64,000 nt of DNA from Escherichia phage EPFV3-03/2025. Position numbers and translations under genes: made by a program. A model generated the notes under the pieces. It had not been told where the DNA came from, ran no database searches, and saw only the letters and a list, made by a program, of their open reading frames with translations. Numbering within the stretch: the stretch's first letter is position 1; each line of letters opens with the position of its first letter. The stretch lies in the sequence record PV435126.1; one strand, 5' to 3'. This document shows positions 26,328 through 53,132 of this stretch, piece after piece.

Positions 26328-26440
26328 ACATACTCCGCATCGCATTTAGGACAATGCCAAATAAAATCGTCCAGTGCCTTACACCAACGAAGATTGCAAT
26401 GACAACCACACTTGCAAATTTTATAAATACCTGTAGACAT
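26324..26440 (-). CDS. small Cys-rich zinc-ribbon-like protein (38 aa)
   Basis: AGGAGG RBS; MSTGIYKICKCGCHCNLRWCKALDDFIWHCPKCDAEYV; stop overlaps nrdG ATG (ATGA); below track cutoff. Confidence 0.45.
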   Translation of the reverse strand: MSTGIYKICKCGCHCNLRWCKALDDFIWHCPKCDAEYV

Positions 26441-26503
26441 ACTGCACCTCCTAGTTTACTGTGTAACAACAATATGCCACATCCTTGTGACTTTTGTCAA
26501 GTA

Positions 26504-27496
26504 TCAGCAACCACAACTTCCGTAGTGCTTAACCCGTTCTATAACCTCCGCTTGCTTACCTTTATTGTAAGGACGAGAGTTTGGACTGGACAGATACCCG
26601 GATACGCGTCTGATCACACTGATCGTTCCTTCTTCATGGTTTCCACATTCTGGGCATACAAAGCCTTTAGCTGTTGCACTGAACTCACCAGAGAATCCAC
26701 ACTTAAGACATTTATCCACAGGCTGGTTAATACCAAAATACATAATGTGTTTATATCCGAAATCAACAAGAGCTTCCAAAGCATCTAAGTTGTTTTTCAG
26801 ATTTGGTGTCTCTATGTACCCAATGTTGCCACCAGAGGAGATCATAGCAAAACCTTCCTCATACTTCCACTTATCAAAAGGCGAGCTATTGATCCATACT
26901 GGCTGATGGAAACTGTTGGTGAGGTATTCATGCTCGTGCTTCAACACTTCTGGGTATTCACGATCCAGACAGGTTGCAGCTTTATAGCATAAACTCTCAG
27001 AAGGTGTGCCGTACAAGCTAAATGCTAGTCCACTTTCCTTCTTGTATCGCTCACAAGCATCTTTCATGTGCTGAAGGATTCCAAGAGCTAAAGCCTTGTC
27101 ACCCTCTCTGCCCAAAATCTGACAGGTTTCATACACACCAATATACCCAATACTGATGGAAGCGTACCCGTCATAGAAGAGTTTATCGATACTCTCTTCA
27201 GGATCCAGGCGAGCAAGAGCTCCTTCACACCACATGATAGGGTTCTGCCCTGCCTTTGTTCCTTTTAGACGGTTAACCCTTACAAGGTGAGCCTCATATG
27301 CCAAATCCAAATATTCGTCAAGAACTGCAAAGAAATCAACACCTTCCGTTTTAGCTTTTGCCGCAATCATTGGTAGGTTAAGGCTAACAACACCCAAGTT
27401 GAATCTGCCAAGGTATTTCTCCTCGCCTGTTACAGGGTCGCTATATTTCGATAAGAAACTTCTACACATTATGTTCAAGGTGGTTCGCAAGGCCAC
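26504..27496 (-). CDS. nrdD: anaerobic ribonucleoside-triphosphate reductase, C-terminal part
   Basis: Glycyl radical motif RVSGYL near C-terminus, Zn-ribbon CLKCG...CPECG; first codon in track is GTG, so start or splice junction is uncertain. Confidence 0.85.
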   Translation of the reverse strand: MALRTTLNIMCRSFLSKYSDPVTGEEKYLGRFNLGVVSLNLPMIAAKAKTEGVDFFAVLDEYLDLAYEAHLVRVNRLKGTKAGQNPIMWCEGALARLDPEESIDKLFYDGYASISIGYIGVYETCQILGREGDKALALGILQHMKDACERYKKESGLAFSLYGTPSESLCYKAATCLDREYPEVLKHEHEYLTNSFHQPVWINSSPFDKWKYEEGFAMISSGGNIGYIETPNLKNNLDALEALVDFGYKHIMYFGINQPVDKCLKCGFSGEFSATAKGFVCPECGNHEEGTISVIRRVSGYLSSPNSRPYNKGKQAEVIERVKHYGSCGC

Positions 27497-27616
27497 CCCC
27501 GCACCTTTACGTGCTGCTGCATGTCCCCATGCAGATCAGACTATATCTTCACACTTAGTGTGTCTACCATTTCGAGTGTCATCAGCTTACACCCTACACC
27601 GCTACATTCATCACGG

Positions 27617-28168
27617 TTAGTCGTTAGGCATTTCGTAACAGAACTCGTAATCATAGTTATTAGGTGCACCACGTTTCAGGATAGCAGATATTCTTTTTCT
27701 ATCTATTCCTAAAACATCAGCACAACATCTCAGACTCTTAAAGTGAATAACCACACCAGTTAATTTGTGGGTGGCTTTCACCCCGTGACATCTTGTGTAA
27801 AAAGCATAACAGTTGTTGTCGTATCCTTCTTGAGTATTGTCTGGGCAAGCTCCCCACTCAAGGTTGTATACGCTGTTATCTTTCCTGTTGTCACCTTTGT
27901 GCTTAACATATGGTAAATTGTCTGGATTTGGTAAAAACGCTTCAGCAACAAGTCTGTGAACCCTTAGGCAAACAGTCTTTTTGTTCTTGCGTATCCTGAC
28001 AAGACGGTAACCTGTGTTTATCTCTTCCCACGAATGAATAATTCTTTCATTTTCGTATCGGGTGCAATAAACATTGCCCATCTCGTCAATTTCATAACCT
28101 TCAAAATCACGAATTTGTTTTCTCATTTCAGGACTCCTCTTAGTCAGGAGTTCTGTTACGTTTAGCAC
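27617..28168 (-). mobile_element. HNH homing endonuclease gene inserted within nrdD
   Basis: HNH/AP2-like signature GYRLVRI...VHRLVAEAF...HKGDNRKDNSVYNLEWG; lies between the two nrdD halves. Confidence 0.8.
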
Positions 28169-28219
28169 GGGATTGTCCGTTCTGGAGTTTCCCCGTTTAG
28201 ATAGATTTTACATGAGCAG

Positions 28220-29389
28220 TTATAGTTTACCCATGCTTGTTACTTTGCCGTCTGTTGAACCTGTCACTTTACGATTCAGCGGAACAGAAACAAAGTCAGG
28301 ATAAATCCGCTCTGCAGAACATTCTAGAGCCAATCGTTTCAAATCGTAGTTAGGATCCCCAGGGTTCATGTTGACACCCTCCTCTAAGAAGAACAGCACT
28401 TTAGGGAACACAGGTGTGATCCGTTCTTCACCAAGACCCATTTTGTGAACTTTCAAGTAGTTTTTGGTAATCATTCTACCAAAGACCGAGGTATCTAGCC
28501 CTAAACTTAATGTGATGAATGGAGTTTGCCCGTTGACAGAAGTTAACGTATTGATTTGGTAGAGCAAAGTTTGCATACTATCAAACACGTCTTTATCTGT
28601 CATTTGCATTGCAACAGTCTCAGCATCTGGCAACCAATGTTCCTGACAAAATTTAAGGTTCTTCTCGTAGGTTGCTTCAGCATACTGTGCCAGATAATGA
28701 TCAATATGGCTCATGGTCTGACCACCATATTGAGCACTAGCTACTGCACTAGAGATTTGGCTAAGGATTGTTGTTGCAACCCCTATTGACTTCGGCTTAC
28801 TGACATGGGCGTTGCCAATGTTGAATCCGTTTTCCAGCATATCCGGATAATTTACCAAACAACAGTTTGTTAACGGACTGATCAGGTAGTCAAGATCATG
28901 CACATGGATGAAGCCTTTGTTGTGCTCTTCGGAGACACGGTCTGGCAGGATCTGTGTTGATGCAAGATGTTTGCTAAGGATTCCTGCAAGCAGGTCACGA
29001 TGAGTGTGTACATGATTAGTAGGCTTATTTGCGTTTTCTTTTGTAAATTCATCACAAGTACGATCCAAGAAGCCGCTAATATCTGCAAGCAGTTTTCCAC
29101 CTGCCTCTCTGTTATTATCCCTTGTCTGTCTATACTGGATGTATTCTCTGGCTGCACATTTTAAACCCATATCCATAAGAGCATCTTCAACAAGGATATG
29201 GATATTTTTTACAGAGATCGTGCACTGGTCAGTTGGCAGATTGTTGGCAACAACTTCATTAACCGCACAGGCAATCCGGTAAGCTTCTTCTTCAGTATGT
29301 CCAGACTCAAGTAAGGCGGACTCTGCCGCCTTGATCACCTTAATTCCGTTATAAAACTCTTCTCTACCGTCCCGTTTTACAACTTTCAC
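28220..29389 (-). CDS. nrdD: anaerobic ribonucleoside-triphosphate reductase, N-terminal part (ATP-cone)
   Basis: ATP-cone-like N-terminus MKVVKRDGREEFYNGIKV; halves total 719 aa, near full-length NrdD. Confidence 0.85.
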   Translation of the reverse strand: MKVVKRDGREEFYNGIKVIKAAESALLESGHTEEEAYRIACAVNEVVANNLPTDQCTISVKNIHILVEDALMDMGLKCAAREYIQYRQTRDNNREAGGKLLADISGFLDRTCDEFTKENANKPTNHVHTHRDLLAGILSKHLASTQILPDRVSEEHNKGFIHVHDLDYLISPLTNCCLVNYPDMLENGFNIGNAHVSKPKSIGVATTILSQISSAVASAQYGGQTMSHIDHYLAQYAEATYEKNLKFCQEHWLPDAETVAMQMTDKDVFDSMQTLLYQINTLTSVNGQTPFITLSLGLDTSVFGRMITKNYLKVHKMGLGEERITPVFPKVLFFLEEGVNMNPGDPNYDLKRLALECSAERIYPDFVSVPLNRKVTGSTDGKVTSMGKL

Positions 29390-29667: not shown

Positions 29668-30756
29668 TTAAAACTCCCAAATTTCTTCTTCAGCGTCGTT
29701 AACAGTTGTGTTGACGCGGTAGTCAGTGTTCGACATTTCTTGGTTCGCCGTCTGTTGCAATGAAGGTTTCATCCACACCTGCATAAACGGTAGCGGGTCC
29801 TTTGTTGGCGGCACAAAGTCTTTGTCGATGTCGTAATAATCATAAATCGGTGAGCAGTTATAGTCAACCCATTCTTTAAGCAACGGTGAATTAAGACCTA
29901 TAATCGCTCTTCCTTCGCTGAAAATATAGTCACTCCAACCGTACTCCTTGGTCCGCACTTCGTCAAGAATTTCTTTTAACTCACCCTTAATCTCAAGAAA
30001 GCTTTGCTCCCATGCAGGATCATCAAGCAGGATATCGATGATAGCAAAATCACCTTTCGAATGCAGCATTTCATCAAGCATAATTTTTTGAACAAGTTGT
30101 GCCACTTGAACAAAAATACCTTGCTCAGCTACTGCGAACGTACATGCAAAACTTGCAATAAACTCAATACTTTCTAGAGCTAAAAGTGCAAAAAGTGCTC
30201 TAAGGATACATTTCCGTACAACATCTTCTTCAACACTGGAAGGATCCAGTCGGTATTTTGCACCAATAACCTCAAGCTCTTGCATATATTTGACAATAAC
30301 TCCAGATCTGCTCAGCACGTTCTGGTTTTCCTGAATCTCTTCTATAATCTCGCGAGCATTAGGAAGGCATTGTCTAACAATCTCTGAGTAAGTTAGTGCA
30401 TGAAGAACCTCAATCTCAGACTGCTTCATCAACAAGGTGAAAAGCTCACTGTTGGTGATAAATGGTGAAAACAGACAAATGATAGATCTTGCTGCAACAC
30501 TGTCTGCCTCCCATTGCCACATCAGTGTCTGCACCATCACATCGTAAGTTGACTTTGAGCATGTTACGAAATCAGAAATAGACTGTGACAAATCTACTTC
30601 GTCCTCTGCCCAATCTTGTTCTTTTTGTTTTTTGTATAGTTCAAACAGCTGTGGATACTTTTTGTTAATAGAGTCGTACATCCCCATCTGCTGTCCTAGA
30701 AACAGCGGATAATCACCAGTTTTATGAGCAGTGTTCTCAGTATTAAATACGGACAT
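29668..30756 (-). CDS. nrdB: ribonucleotide reductase class Ia beta subunit
   Basis: LESIEFIASFACTFAVAE...DEMLH resembles the NrdB di-iron/tyrosyl region. Confidence 0.9.
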   Translation of the reverse strand: MSVFNTENTAHKTGDYPLFLGQQMGMYDSINKKYPQLFELYKKQKEQDWAEDEVDLSQSISDFVTCSKSTYDVMVQTLMWQWEADSVAARSIICLFSPFITNSELFTLLMKQSEIEVLHALTYSEIVRQCLPNAREIIEEIQENQNVLSRSGVIVKYMQELEVIGAKYRLDPSSVEEDVVRKCILRALFALLALESIEFIASFACTFAVAEQGIFVQVAQLVQKIMLDEMLHSKGDFAIIDILLDDPAWEQSFLEIKGELKEILDEVRTKEYGWSDYIFSEGRAIIGLNSPLLKEWVDYNCSPIYDYYDIDKDFVPPTKDPLPFMQVWMKPSLQQTANQEMSNTDYRVNTTVNDAEEEIWEF

Positions 30757-52319: not shown

Positions 52320-52394
52320 GCCCTGTTAGCTTAGTGGATAAAGCAGCGGCCTTCTAAGCCGTTGACACTGGTTCGAGTCCAGTACGGGGTGCCA
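52320..52394 (+). tRNA. tRNA-Arg (anticodon TCT)
   Basis: Manual cloverleaf: 7-bp acceptor GCCCTGT/ACGGGGT, 4-bp D-stem, anticodon loop CTTCTAA, T-loop TTCGAGT, CCA encoded. Confidence 0.75.
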
Positions 52395-52398
52395 AATT

Positions 52399-52485
52399 GG
52401 GGAGTTATCCCGTAGAGGTAGCGGTGTAGACTGTAAATCTATTGTCATTGCGACTCGGGTGGTTCGACTCCACCACTCCCCACCA
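52399..52485 (+). tRNA. tRNA-Tyr (anticodon GTA), long variable arm
   Basis: Acceptor GGGGAGT/ACTCCCC, anticodon loop CTGTAAA, T-arm GGTGG-TTCGACT-CCACC, CCA encoded. Confidence 0.7.
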
Positions 52486-52599
52486 AATTTATATTTTTAA
52501 ATGCATAAATCATACAGATAATGACATTGATATTTATCGTCGTTTATACTAGTCACTAACTGCTCGAAAATCAGTGTCATTATCAGTGTAATTTATAAA

Positions 52600-52690
52600 G
52601 GAGGGTAGGGAGCAATGGTGCTCAAGCGGTCTTGAAAACCGTCCCGTTGAGGATGACTCGATGATGGTTCGATTCCATTACTCTCCGCCA
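52600..52690 (+). tRNA. tRNA-Ser (anticodon TGA), long variable arm
   Basis: Acceptor GGAGGGT/ACTCTCC, anticodon stem GCGGT/ACCGT with loop CTTGAAA, T-loop TTCGATT, CCA encoded. Confidence 0.7.
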
Positions 52691-52788
52691 CATTGTTGAC
52701 CTTGTAATTAAGCGAAAGCCGGAAGCAGAACCGGATTATCAAATGTTACAGTCGTCATCGCCGACTAGCCACATGGTCAACATATTGC

Positions 52789-52887
52789 GCTAGGTAAGCC
52801 CTTTGGCAAGGGCGAGGATTTTTAATCCTGAAAATAGACGAGGTAGTCGTTGAATACATAGGTGGTTCGATTCCATCACCTAGCACC
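52789..52887 (+). tRNA. atypical tRNA-like gene (possible anticodon TTT) with about 30-nt insertion before T-arm
   Basis: Perfect 7-bp acceptor GCTAGGT/ACCTAGC, D-arm GCCC-TTTGGCAA-GGGC, T-arm GGTGG-TTCGATT-CCATC, but 4-bp anticodon stem and over-long variable region; CCA not fully encoded. Confidence 0.45.
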
Positions 52888-52892
52888 TTTTT

Positions 52893-52968
52893 GCTGATGT
52901 AGCACAATTGGCAGTGCAATTGATTTGTAATCAATAGGTTGCAGGTTCGAGTCCTGCCATCAGCACCA
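52893..52968 (+). tRNA. tRNA-Thr (anticodon TGT)
   Basis: Acceptor GCTGATG/CATCAGC, D-stem GCAC/GTGC, anticodon stem ATTGA/TCAAT loop TTTGTAA, T-loop TTCGAGT, CCA. Confidence 0.8.
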
Positions 52969-52969
52969 T

Positions 52970-53044
52970 GGCCCTGTAGCTGGAAGGTTCAAGCAAGCGA
53001 CTCATAATCGCCAGACGGTGGTTCAATTCCACCCAGGGCCACCA
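52970..53044 (+). tRNA. tRNA-Met (anticodon CAT; Ile-lysidine type not excluded)
   Basis: Acceptor GGCCCTG/CAGGGCC, anticodon loop CTCATAA, T-arm GGTGG-TTCAATT-CCACC, CCA. Confidence 0.7.
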
Positions 53045-53055
53045 AATAATAAATA

Positions 53056-53132
53056 CTCCGCGTAGCTCAGCTTGGTAGAGCGCCTGATTTGGGATCAGGA
53101 GGTCGAGTGTTCGAATCACTCCGTGGAGACCA
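53056..53132 (+). tRNA. tRNA-Pro (anticodon TGG)
   Basis: C1-G72 acceptor CTCCGCG/CGTGGAG, D-arm GCTC-AGCTTGGTA-GAGC, anticodon stem CCTGA/TCAGG loop TTTGGGA, T-loop TTCGAAT, CCA. Confidence 0.8.

What the first reader, a model, noticed from the sequence alone, without database searches (positions are those of the whole stretch)
26504..29389. nrdD split in two by an HNH homing-endonuclease gene
The ATP-cone half (28220-29389) and the glycyl-radical half (26504-27496) are separate ORFs flanking a 552-bp HNH gene (27617-28168). The lower ORF has no ATG at its 5' end; the first in-frame ATG lies 9 codons in. Only 51 and 120 bp of non-ORF sequence flank the endonuclease gene. Either this is a group I intron with an embedded homing endonuclease, or a free-standing endonuclease has fragmented nrdD into two polypeptides.
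Basis: partly seen in the sequence, partly recalled or inferred. Interest (0 to 1): 0.6.

Follow-up and report, generated by a model that had tools for sequence, protein, structure and literature searches.

The report
Group I intron with HNH gene in nrdD
The phage's anaerobic ribonucleotide reductase gene (nrdD) is interrupted, just before its catalytic cysteine codon, by a 762-base self-splicing group I intron that carries its own HNH homing-endonuclease gene; this is a well-known kind of mobile element and a close relative of the classic phage T4 nrdD intron.

Summary
In detail: the three ORFs lie where stated on the minus strand.

**What it is.** The window comes from an rV5/FV3-like (Vequintavirus) E. 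coli phage. nrdD is interrupted by a 762-nt group I intron (window 28228-27467).
- Removing the intron joins ...SMG|CRSFL... into a 707-aa NrdD. This is the same length as the uninterrupted gene of a sister phage.
- The 5' splice site follows a U that forms a U·G pair in P1. The intron ends in G.

**Structure.** P1-P9, including P7.1/P7.2, is supported by covariation across seven related introns. 99.4% of cells are paired, 21 of 48 pairs change on both sides, and 0 of 500 shuffles reach that.
- ORF-less 252-290-nt versions sit at the same codon in other phages and pass Rfam's group I threshold.

**The HNH gene.** The true start is ATG 28126 (169 aa). It lies in the P6 loop, is I-HmuI-like and is under purifying selection (dN/dS 0.05).
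- Its last codons double as P6, J6/7 and P7.
- Its ribosome-binding site is held in a conserved hairpin.

**Relation to T4.** The ribozyme and guide sequence are nearly those of the T4 nrdD intron. The insertion site, the endonuclease family and the ORF position all differ.

Splicing was not tested experimentally. Verdict: a new, unannotated member of a known kind.

The parts
28229..29389 (-). nrdD exon 1 (codons 1-387: ATP-cone and N-terminal half of the barrel); last bases ...CAUGGGU form the 5' strand of P1
   Evidence: Pfam ATP-cone and NRDD positions 1-263. Alignment to the intron-less allele L001 ends exactly at 28229. T4 NrdD alignment.
27467..28228 (-). Group I intron, 762 nt, T4-like with P7.1/P7.2
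   Evidence: The size difference to intron-less alleles is 762 nt. Rfam RF00028 3' core hit, E=8e-6. Covariation. ORF-less homologues at the same site pass the Rfam gathering score.
26504..27466 (-). nrdD exon 2 (codons 388-707 plus stop), starting with the catalytic-loop Cys codon (CRSFL) and containing the glycyl-radical domain and Zn ribbon
   Evidence: Pfam NRDD positions 263-562 and Gly_radical. T4 NrdD residues 288-604 align. Spliced translation.
28211..28217 (-). Internal guide sequence GCUCAUG (P1 3' strand); pairs with exon bases 28235-28229 CAUGGGU, including the U·G pair at the splice site
   Evidence: All 7 pairs are kept in 7 introns; the IGS is identical to T4's.
28167..28205 (-). 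P3 5' strand (28205-28200), P4 (28196-28192 with 28171-28167) and P5 (28186-28184 with 28178-28176)
   Evidence: Compensatory changes in P3 (4 pairs), P4 (2) and P5 (2). Coordinates.
28148..28160 (-). P6 5' strand CGUAACAGAACUC; pairs perfectly (13 bp) with 27646-27634. The HNH ORF is in the P6 loop
   Evidence: The two strands are exact reverse complements. ORF-less homologues have a short P6 hairpin in the same place.
28129..28155 (-). Hairpin that encloses the HNH Shine-Dalgarno sequence (AGGAG); its 5' arm overlaps the distal P6 5' strand
   Evidence: Found by the scan. MFE folds of the window, nepoznato and F89 all enclose the SD despite sequence differences.
27617..28126 (-). HNH homing-endonuclease gene (169 aa plus stop), I-HmuI-like
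   Evidence: PDB 1u3e, E=6e-8 over the full length. PHROG 59, E=4.5e-32. Pfam HNH_3 and I-HmuI NUMOD-like, both sub-threshold. dN/dS 0.046.
27618..27646 (-). Dual-coding stretch: P6 3' strand, J6/7 and P7 5' strand (GACUA) also encode the last residues ...EFCYEMPND and the stop codon of the HNH protein
   Evidence: Coordinates. There are zero nucleotide differences from nepoznato in the last 9 codons, against dS of 1.09 for the whole ORF and 1.18 for codons 1-160. F89's HNH, only 50% identical, ends in the same EMPND.
27574..27617 (-). P7.1 (ACCG/CGGU) and P7.2 (GGGUGU/ACACUC), the extra helices typical of subgroup IA
   Evidence: Four pairs in each helix show changes on both sides.
27539..27568 (-). 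P3 3' strand (27568-27563), P8 (27562-27550), J8/7 and P7 3' strand UAGUC (27543-27539)
   Evidence: Rfam alignment. Covariation in P3, P8 and P7.
27467..27534 (-). P9 (27534-27517), P9.1 (27514-27501), P9.2 (27497-27479) and the terminal G (27467)
   Evidence: Coordinates and 3' tails of six site-B introns, with compensatory changes in P9.1 and P9.2, for example in F89.
27428..27466 (-). First 39 nt of exon 2: a hypervariable tract next to the insertion site, and the likely endonuclease recognition and co-conversion zone
   Evidence: 16 of 39 differences from Pr121LW, against 11 of 120 upstream and 5 of 81 downstream. The first 14 nt are identical in all E. coli-phage intron-plus alleles. None of 135 intron-less alleles carries the window's version.

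Best explanation
nrdD is one gene interrupted by a mobile, self-splicing group I intron (window 28228-27467, minus strand). After transcription the intron RNA folds into a T4-like IA-type ribozyme. Its guide sequence GCUCAUG pairs with the last exon-1 bases CAUGGGU (P1). An external guanosine attacks after U28229. The freed exon-1 end then attacks after the terminal G27467. This joins ...AUG GGU|UGU AGA... and gives mRNA for a single 707-aa NrdD in which the catalytic-loop cysteine follows Gly387 (inferred from sequence; not shown experimentally). The P6 loop carries a 169-aa I-HmuI-type HNH endonuclease gene. By analogy with I-HmuI, the protein would nick intron-less nrdD alleles of co-infecting phages close to the insertion site, probably reading mostly exon-2 sequence. 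Repair from the intron-bearing genome would then copy the intron and adjacent exon bases into the recipient (homing with co-conversion; inferred). Translation of the endonuclease is probably held back by a hairpin that buries its Shine-Dalgarno sequence. That would protect the ribozyme, because the ORF's 3' end runs through P6, J6/7 and P7 and ribosomes there would unfold the core (inferred, by analogy with the T4 intron endonucleases).
For: Boundaries: intron-less sister alleles are exactly 762 nt shorter, and the alignment breaks at 28229. The spliced ORF is 707 aa, the same length as and colinear with Pr121LW NrdD, and contiguous on T4 NrdD. Ribozyme: the Rfam group I 3' core hit has E=8e-6. 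My P1-P9 model on 7 homologous introns gives 99.4% pairing against 31-45% for slid controls, 21 of 48 pairs with double changes, and 0 of 500 shuffles reaching that. ORF-less 252-290-nt copies at the identical codon score 70-80 bits against a gathering score of 50, and T4's nrdD intron scores 105 bits. The core is about 80% identical to T4's nrdD intron and has the same IGS. P6 is a perfect 13-bp stem bracketing the ORF. Endonuclease: full-length match to I-HmuI and to an HNH PHROG. dN/dS is 0.046. A 50%-identical orthologue sits in the same loop of the same-site intron in Vibrio phage F89. SD hairpin: conserved in three divergent introns. [quoted passage not shown] Mobility signature: presence is patchy, with 28 phage records carrying at least 80% of the intron and 135 lacking it at this site. 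The intron occurs in Vequintavirus, Phapecoctavirus, Justusliebigvirus, Avunavirus and a Vibrio phage. The exon-2 tract beside the site is hypervariable. [quoted passage not shown]
Against: No experiment shows splicing or endonuclease activity for this element. The window's own Rfam score (32.9 bits) is below the gathering score of 50, and the 5' half of that Rfam alignment was forced into the ORF and is an artefact. Both follow from the 500-nt ORF splitting the core. Pfam HNH_3 (20.1 bits, cut-off 24.8) and the NUMOD-like domain (18.3 bits, cut-off 27) are sub-threshold. The residue before the catalytic His is Lys (Cys in F89), where, from my memory of the I-HmuI structure, I-HmuI has a metal-binding Asp. 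I could not identify a convincing P10. The hypervariable exon-2 tract also differs between two intron-less alleles (FV3 and Pr121LW), so it is not simply a marker of intron carriage.
Confidence: 0.92

Rival explanations
1. Genes-in-pieces: the insertion does not splice, and NrdD is made as two polypeptides (a 389-aa N-half and a roughly 321-aa C-half) that assemble into an active enzyme, as reported for NrdA split by mobE in Aeromonas phage Aeh1.
For: Both halves are intact ORFs. An ATG immediately precedes the Cys codon of exon 2, and GenBank annotators start the downstream CDS there. A non-splicing HNH-associated interruption has been reported in phage CB7, and the Aeh1 case is cited in the same paper (PMC7344957).
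Against: A complete ribozyme supported by covariation surrounds the ORF. ORF-less 252-nt copies at the same codon cannot be explained by a free-standing endonuclease gene. There is no Shine-Dalgarno sequence in the roughly 12 nt before ATG 27469, which lies just 3' of the P9.2 hairpin. The break falls directly before the catalytic-loop cysteine inside the barrel.
Confidence: 0.04
2. Decayed element: the intron has lost splicing ability or the HNH gene is dead, so nrdD is effectively a pseudogene in this phage and tolerated because aerobic NrdAB suffices.
For: Class III reductase is dispensable under aerobic laboratory growth. Some relatives carry degenerate, ORF-deleted versions of the intron. 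The putative metal-binding Asp is not conserved.
Against: Every core helix is intact in the window copy and identical or compensated relative to T4. Both exons are free of stops or frameshifts and about 95% identical to the intron-less alleles. The HNH ORF shows dN/dS of 0.046.
Confidence: 0.03
3. Intein: the insert is removed at the protein level.
For: The intron length is a multiple of 3, and the HNH ORF is in the same frame as both exons.
Against: There are two in-frame stop codons between exon 1 and the HNH start, and several between the HNH stop and exon 2. No intein (Hint) domain hit was found.
Confidence: 0

Closest known systems
Phage T4 nrdD (sunY) group I intron carrying I-TevII
   Same: Same host gene. 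The ribozyme is nearly the same: the 3' core is about 80% identical, the internal guide sequence GCUCAUG is identical, and the P3-P9 architecture with P7.1/P7.2 is shared. An RBS-sequestering hairpin sits in front of the endonuclease gene (PMC2988022).
   Different: T4's intron sits at codon 180, phase 1 (exon ...UAUGAGU|). This one sits between codons 387 and 388, which is T4 Gly289|Cys290. T4's ORF is a GIY-YIG enzyme placed 3' of P9. Here the ORF is an HNH enzyme in the P6 loop. T4's intron is 1033 nt, this one 762 nt.
I-HmuI / I-HmuII / I-BasI: HNH nicking endonucleases of group I introns in Bacillus phage DNA polymerase genes
   Same: Full-length sequence similarity to I-HmuI (1u3e, E=6e-8), covering the N-terminal HNH part and the C-terminal NUMOD-like DNA-binding part, with similar size (169 versus 174 aa). 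Both are encoded in phage group I introns.
   Different: The host gene and host phage lineage differ. Identity is low. The residue preceding the catalytic His differs. Nicking activity and cleavage position are untested here.
T4 td intron / I-TevI and RB3 nrdB intron / I-TevIII
   Same: These are phage group I introns in nucleotide-metabolism genes. The core is about 72% identical to the td intron. I-TevIII is also an HNH enzyme (PMC2988022). From memory, those ORFs are likewise looped out of P6.
   Different: The genes differ. I-TevI is a GIY-YIG enzyme. I-TevIII is a dimeric double-strand cutter with zinc-finger modules (PMC1865063) and is not the closest relative of this protein.
Aeh1 nrdA split by the free-standing HNH gene mobE (genes in pieces)
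   Same: An HNH gene sits between two halves of a ribonucleotide reductase gene. A hairpin sequesters the endonuclease RBS (PMC2988022).
   Different: As described in the papers read here, mobE does not splice and the two halves are translated separately. Here a full ribozyme is present and the downstream half lacks its own RBS.
Same-site introns in other phages (Escherichia phages nepoznato, AMO3598, cardinal, 19-1-2; Vibrio phage F89)
   Same: Identical insertion point...(S/Y)MG|CRS... The ribozyme is the same. nepoznato and F89 carry orthologous HNH genes in P6, at 91% and 50% aa identity.
   Different: AMO3598, cardinal and 19-1-2 have lost the ORF, or never had it, and are 252-290 nt long. 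The database records annotate all of them as two separate NrdD CDSs, not as an intron.

Membership tests
Group I intron (Rfam RF00028) | The 5' splice site follows a U that forms a U·G wobble with the internal guide sequence in P1 | tested here: met
   Exon CAUGGGU pairs with IGS GCUCAUG. The U·G pair is invariant in 7 of 7 introns.
Group I intron (Rfam RF00028) | The intron ends in a G (omega G), and precise excision restores the host reading frame | tested here: met
   G27467 is the last base. The spliced ORF is 707 aa and colinear with the intron-less allele.
Group I intron (Rfam RF00028) | Conserved core helices P3-P8 with the P3/P7 pseudoknot and the J6/7 and J8/7 junctions, supported by covariation | tested here: met
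   99.4% paired, 21 of 48 pairs with changes on both sides, 0 of 500 shuffles, slid controls 31-45%. J8/7 plus P7, AAGAUAUAGUC, is identical to T4's.
Group I intron (Rfam RF00028) | Covariance-model score at or above the curated gathering score (50 bits) | tested here: inconclusive
   The window copy scores 32.9 bits, E=8e-6, because the 500-nt ORF in P6 splits the core. ORF-less copies with near-identical cores score 70.4-79.8 bits and T4 scores 105.3 bits.
Group I intron (Rfam RF00028) | Guanosine-dependent self-splicing | not testable with these tools
   Needs in vitro transcription with GTP labelling, or RT-PCR from infected cells.
Subgroup IA (T4-type) group I introns | Extra helices P7.1/P7.2 between P7 and the P3 3' strand (criterion from my knowledge of the Michel-Westhof classification) | tested here: met
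   Both helices are present, each with 4 covarying pairs.
HNH homing endonuclease, I-HmuI-like | Sequence membership in the HNH family | tested here: met
   PHROG 59 'HNH endonuclease', E=4.5e-32. I-HmuI structure 1u3e, E=6e-8, residues 3-166 against 4-172. Pfam HNH_3 is below its cut-off (20.1 against 24.8 bits).
HNH homing endonuclease, I-HmuI-like | Catalytic His and the Asn residues of the HNH motif present | tested here: inconclusive
   His (VKH) and Asn (YNLEW) align with I-HmuI's VDH and TNLRW. The preceding Asp is Lys here and Cys in F89. The importance of that Asp rests on my memory of the I-HmuI structure.
HNH homing endonuclease, I-HmuI-like | Site-specific nicking or cleavage of the intron-less allele, and homing in mixed infection | not testable with these tools
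   There is indirect support only: purifying selection, patchy distribution and a hypervariable flank.
Genes-in-pieces (free-standing endonuclease gene splitting a gene, Aeh1 mobE type) | No self-splicing element around the endonuclease gene, and the downstream fragment has its own translation start signals | tested here: not met
   A ribozyme is present. No SD precedes ATG 27469, which is the last three intron bases.
Intein | An uninterrupted in-frame fusion with the host protein | tested here: not met
   In-frame stops lie on both sides of the HNH ORF.

The most novel reading that the evidence does not exclude
The same ribozyme chassis with the same guide sequence (GCUCAUG) occupies two different nrdD sites. 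One is T4 codon 180 (...AUGAGU|) and the other is this site at the catalytic Cys (...AUGGGU|). The two copies carry unrelated endonucleases (GIY-YIG after P9, HNH in P6). This fits ectopic transposition of the intron to a new site chosen by guide-sequence pairing, for example by reverse splicing, followed by capture of a different endonuclease gene. The 23-of-26 match between the intron's 5' end and Vequintavirus nrdB could be a scar of ectopic repair between nrdB and the intron. If so, the present form of the intron would have originated in a Vequintavirus genome before spreading to other genera.
Probability: 0.15. Interest if true: 0.55.

Novelty: new member of a known kind. Interest (0 to 1): 0.3.

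Why it matters
For annotation: the six intron-bearing phage records I inspected list nrdD here as two (in JEP1, three) separate 'NrdD' CDSs. In the record I checked (SYGMH1) the second CDS starts at an ATG that is really the end of the intron. One record (JEP1) notes 'Phage intron' on the HNH gene, but none annotates an intron feature or a joined CDS. Recognising the intron gives the correct single 707-aa enzyme.

For biology: this is one more clear case of a mobile intron aimed at the codons of a catalytic residue. It also shows modular evolution, with a T4-type ribozyme and guide sequence combined with a different endonuclease family at a different site of the same gene.

The overlap of the endonuclease's last codons with P6, J6/7 and P7, and the conserved RBS hairpin, illustrate how such ORFs are fitted into a ribozyme.

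Intron endonucleases have been reported to mediate competition between co-infecting phages (PMC11620839; abstract seen only). That could matter for rV5-like phages used in cocktails. None of this is conceptually new.

Tried and rejected
1. The 5' half of the Rfam alignment places P1-P6 inside the HNH ORF (27751-27620). I rejected it as an artefact. The true 5' half is at 28228-28148, as shown by the ORF-less homologues and by covariation.

2. MAFFT put P6 out of register for 19-1-2, T4 and SHSML, so I left P6 out of the formal count. By eye these sequences form CGGU/ACCG, CAGC/GCUG and GUUC/GAAC, which also covary.

3. I found no convincing P10. Only weak 4-bp options exist (UAUA/UGUA or AACU/AGUU), so I make no claim.

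4. The sigma-70 promoter scan in and around the intron was at chance level, with 2 found against 1.7 expected. I propose no internal promoter. The promoter types of rV5-like phages are not covered by that scan.

5. I first read the diverged exon-2 tract as a simple co-conversion or immunity marker of intron-plus alleles. I weakened this after seeing that two intron-less alleles (FV3 and Pr121LW) also differ strongly there, and that FV3 has a one-codon indel. The tract is a general hotspot. Only its first 14 nt are shared by all E. coli-phage intron-plus alleles.

6. The idea that the nrdB 26-mer is an exonised intron remnant was rejected. More distant nrdB genes encode the same K-E/D-W-V/T-D/Y-Y/W motif with no length change.

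7. A literature search found no description of this nrdD site in rV5-like phages. The rV5 genome paper reports introns only in the terminase gene.

8. A whole-window Rfam scan found no other intron.
Full report
**1. Source and layout**

The region is 99.1% identical to Escherichia phage vB_EcoM_SYGMH1, and 94-98% identical to other rV5/FV3-like phages of the genus Vequintavirus. On the minus strand the gene order is nrdA, nrdB, glutaredoxin, nrdD, nrdG.

- 28220-29389 (389 aa) carries an ATP-cone and positions 1-263 of the Pfam NRDD profile.
- 27617-28168 is an HNH-like ORF.
- 26504-27496 (330 aa) carries NRDD positions 263-562 and the glycyl-radical domain.

The two halves therefore meet at one and the same profile position. 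The gaps of 51 and 120 nt are also correct, as is the remark that the first ATG of the lower ORF lies 9 codons in.

**2. Exact boundaries**

Many sister phages have an uninterrupted nrdD. In phage Pr121LW the matching stretch is 2,639 bp against 3,401 bp here, a difference of 762 bp.
- The pairwise alignment runs up to window 28229 and resumes in exon 2.
- Joining 28229 to 27466 gives a 2,124-nt ORF for a 707-aa protein. This is the same length as Pr121LW NrdD and colinear with it across ...GKVTSMG|CRSFLSKY....
- Against the T4 NrdD crystal-structure sequence, exon 1 aligns up to residue 282 and exon 2 from residue 288 (MGCRSFL), so nothing is missing or duplicated.

The intervening sequence is window 28228-27467 (762 nt). 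It follows a U (28229) and ends in a G (27467), which is the group I intron rule.

The insertion lies between codons 387 and 388, which correspond to T4 Gly289|Cys290. From my knowledge of class III reductases, Cys290 is the cysteine that carries the thiyl radical at the active site.

The exon-1 ORF reads two extra codons (K, L, stop) into the intron. The lower ORF begins 10 codons inside the intron, and its first ATG is the last three intron bases.

**3. The ribozyme**

Rfam finds the group I 3' core (J6/7, P7, P3', P8, P7', P9) at 27517-27751 with 32.9 bits and E=8e-6, below the gathering score of 50. The 5' half of that alignment was forced into the HNH ORF and is not real.

The true layout came from homologues. 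Introns at exactly the same codon (...MG|CRS...) occur in five other phages:
- Escherichia phage nepoznato (Phapecoctavirus), with the HNH gene
- AMO3598 (no genus given in its record) and cardinal (Justusliebigvirus), 290 and 280 nt, without the ORF
- 19-1-2 (Avunavirus), 252 nt, without the ORF
- Vibrio phage F89, with an HNH gene

Aligning them shows that the ORF lies in the loop of P6.
- CGUAACAGAACUC (28160-28148) is the perfect complement of GAGUUCUGUUACG (27646-27634).
- The ORF-less 19-1-2 intron has a 4-bp hairpin in the same place.

I derived a full model by hand; all coordinates are.

| Element | Sequence |
|---|---|
| P1 | CAUGGGU / GCUCAUG |
| P3 | UCUAUC / GGUAGA |
| P4 | ACGGG / CCCGU |
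| P5 | UCC / GGA |
| P6 | see above |
| P7 | GACUA / UAGUC |
| P7.1 | ACCG / CGGU |
| P7.2 | GGGUGU / ACACUC |
| P8 | CACAC / GUGUG |
| P9 | CUGCAUG / CAUGCAG |
| P9.1 | GCAC / GUGC |
| P9.2 | GGUGG / CCACC |

I tested the model on an alignment of seven introns with only the distal P6 and ORF trimmed: the window, nepoznato, cardinal, 19-1-2, T4, SHSML-52-1 and F89.
- 99.4% of 331 cells form standard pairs. With partners slid by 1-3 columns the figure is 31-45%.
- 21 of 48 pairs show changes on both sides, and 0 of 500 shuffles reach that.
- P3 alone has four different sequence versions, all of them paired.

P6 was left out of this count because MAFFT misplaced it in three sequences. By eye those form CGGU/ACCG, CAGC/GCUG and GUUC/GAAC, which also covary.

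The ORF-less homologues, whose cores are near-identical to the window's, score 70-80 bits and so pass the Rfam gathering score. T4's nrdD intron scores 105 bits. The presence of P7.1 and P7.2 places the intron with the T4-type IA introns; that classification criterion is from memory.

**4. Relation to the T4 nrdD intron**

The window's core is about 80% identical to T4's nrdD intron and about 72% identical to the td intron. The segments covering P1(3'), P3, P4 and P5 are almost the same, and the guide sequence GCUCAUG is identical.

The differences are as follows.

| Feature | T4 nrdD intron | This intron |
|---|---|---|
| Insertion site | Codon 180, phase 1 (exon ...UAUGAGU\|) | Between codons 387 and 388 (exon ...CAUGGGU\|) |
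| Length | 1033 nt | 762 nt |
| Endonuclease | I-TevII, GIY-YIG family | I-HmuI-like HNH |
| ORF position | 3' of P9 | P6 loop |

Both exon ends pair with the same guide sequence, one through an A-U pair and the other through a G·U pair.

A third, unrelated intron with its own HNH gene (28% identical) occupies yet another nrdD site in FV3 and JEP1. That site, Gly287|Gln288, corresponds to window 28529|28528 after shifting the ambiguous alignment break at 28530|28529 one base onto a U. It is empty in this window.

**5. The endonuclease gene**

The best start is ATG 28126, with AGGAG 8 nt upstream. This gives 169 aa, as annotated in SYGMH1.
- The protein matches an HNH-endonuclease PHROG (E=4.5e-32).
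- Over its whole length it matches I-HmuI, the nicking HNH endonuclease of the SPO1 DNA polymerase intron (PDB 1u3e, E=6e-8).
- Pfam HNH_3 and the I-HmuI NUMOD-like domain are hit below their cut-offs.
- The catalytic His and the Asn of ...NLEW align. The residue before the His is Lys rather than Asp.

The gene is 91% identical in protein to nepoznato's copy but only 85% identical in DNA. dN/dS is 0.046, so it is maintained by selection. F89's copy is 50% identical and sits in the same loop of the same-site intron.

The last codons (...EFCYEMPND, stop) are at the same time the P6 3' strand, J6/7 and the P7 5' strand.
- The last 9 codons show no nucleotide difference from nepoznato, although dS is 1.09 over the whole ORF (1.18 over codons 1-160).
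- Even F89 ends in EMPND.

**6. Control of the endonuclease (inferred)**

A hairpin at 28155-28129 (9 pairs and one mismatch) encloses the Shine-Dalgarno sequence and ends 2 nt before the ATG. Its 5' arm is the distal part of the P6 5' strand, so the hairpin and the outer 8 bp of P6 exclude each other.

Equivalent SD-enclosing hairpins fold in nepoznato, with compensatory changes, and in the much more divergent F89.

A review of T4 mobile elements describes the same device for I-TevI, I-TevII, I-TevIII and mobE (PMC2988022). It would limit ribosome traffic through the ORF's 3' end, which is part of the catalytic core.

**7. Signs of mobility**

- In the phage collection, 28 records hold at least 80% of this intron.
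- 135 records have an uninterrupted junction.
- The intron occurs in at least four named genera and a Vibrio phage.
- ORF-less forms in AMO3598 and cardinal still keep part of the ORF's 3' end. This fits the usual cycle of invasion, decay and loss.

The 39 nt of exon 2 next to the site are unusually variable.
- There are 16 of 39 differences from Pr121LW, against 11 of 120 in exon 1 and 5 of 81 further downstream.
- Over the first 13 codons (39 nt), 3 of the 16 changes alter the amino acid (S/N, P/L, V/E); the rest are synonymous.
- All E. coli-phage intron-plus alleles share the first 14 nt, TGTAGAAGTTTCTT.
- No intron-less allele exceeds 89.2% identity to the window's spliced junction.
- However, FV3 and Pr121LW, both intron-less at this site, also differ strongly in this tract. 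It is a general hotspot and not a clean marker of carriage.

[quoted passage not shown] I-HmuI and I-HmuII cut intron-plus as well as intron-less DNA (PMC3428280). A hotspot on the exon-2 side is what recurrent attack, co-conversion and escape would produce. This last step is inference.

**8. Rivals**

- *Genes-in-pieces (Aeh1 nrdA/mobE type).* Contradicted by the ribozyme, by the ORF-less copies at the same codon, and by the lack of an SD before ATG 27469.
- *Intein.* Excluded by in-frame stops on both sides of the ORF, even though the ORF shares the exons' frame and the intron length is a multiple of 3.
- *Decayed, non-splicing intron.* Cannot be excluded without experiment. It is unlikely given intact helices, intact exons and purifying selection.

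**9. Comparison with what is known, and verdict**

I found no paper describing this nrdD site in rV5-like phages. The rV5 genome paper reports introns only in the terminase gene. A survey of phage ribonucleotide reductases notes that nrdD is the most often split reductase gene (PMC3653736).

GenBank records annotate the locus as two NrdD CDSs plus an endonuclease.

The element is thus an unannotated member of a thoroughly known kind: a mobile phage group I intron with a homing-endonuclease gene in a nucleotide-metabolism gene. Four points are of modest interest:
- the position directly before the catalytic cysteine codon
- the reuse of the T4 nrdD ribozyme and guide sequence at a new site with a different endonuclease
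- the dual-coding 3' end of the ORF
- the conserved RBS hairpin

Interest is 0.3.

**10. Unexplained side observation**

A 26-nt stretch of nrdB coding sequence (29876-29851) matches the exon-1/intron junction (28238-28213) at 23 of 26 positions, including the P1 loop and the start of the guide sequence.
- None of 100 shuffles of the window gave a second hit at 3 or fewer mismatches.
- The same 26-mer is present in an intron-less phage.
- The nrdB stretch is native coding sequence. More distant nrdB genes encode the same motif but match less well.

I cannot tell whether this is coincidence or a trace of ectopic repair between nrdB and the intron.

Noticed in passing
window 29851-29876 (minus strand, inside nrdB) versus 28213-28238: nrdB coding sequence AAGAATGGGTTGACTATAACTGCTCA matches the nrdD exon-1/intron junction (the last 10 exon bases plus intron bases 1-16, covering the P1 loop and the start of the guide sequence) at 23 of 26 positions. 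None of 100 shuffles of the window gave a second hit. The 26-mer is also present in an intron-less sister phage. More distant nrdB genes encode the same peptide motif but match less well. It could form a P1-like hairpin in nrdB mRNA. The cause is unknown.
   Followed up: partly
window 28528/28529 (nrdD codons 287/288, VNG|QTP; the BLAST break at 28530|28529 shifts one base to follow a U); loci L003 1472-2269 and L004: Phages FV3 and JEP1 carry a second, unrelated group I-like intron with a different HNH gene (28% identical) at this position. Its P1 is CAACGGU/GCCGUUG and it ends in G. The site is empty in this window. With the T4 site (codon 180), E. coli phages have at least three distinct nrdD intron sites.
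   Followed up: partly
locus L004 (phage JEP1) 4362-5297, between nrdD and nrdG; the equivalent spacer is window 26346-26503: JEP1 has an extra 311-aa hypothetical ORF inserted between nrdD and nrdG, possibly a free-standing homing endonuclease. The window has only a 158-nt spacer there.
   Followed up: no
loci L005 (AMO3598) 401-690 and L006 (cardinal) 401-680: These ORF-less copies of the same intron still keep the P6 stem and part of the 3' end of the HNH ORF (...YDYEFCYEMPND in AMO3598). They look like deletion derivatives of an ORF-bearing intron.
   Followed up: partly
GenBank records of near-identical phages (e.g. SYGMH1, locus L002 2532-3497): The downstream NrdD CDS is annotated as starting at an ATG that is really the last three bases of the intron (MCRSFL...). 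nrdD is listed as two (or three) separate proteins, and no intron feature is annotated.
   Followed up: yes
one search hit list (MG0656xx records): About 25 records named 'Campylobacter phage' with host Campylobacter jejuni are 94% identical to this E. coli rV5-like region. The host label looks doubtful for a Vequintavirus.
   Followed up: no
window 52320-53129 (+ strand): A cluster of tRNA genes: five Rfam tRNA hits plus two weak tRNA-Sec-like hits that are probably long-arm tRNAs.
   Followed up: no
window 27467-28228: The intron length (762) is a multiple of 3, and the HNH ORF is in the same reading frame as both exons. Only stop codons in the flanking ribozyme segments prevent read-through.
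   Followed up: yes
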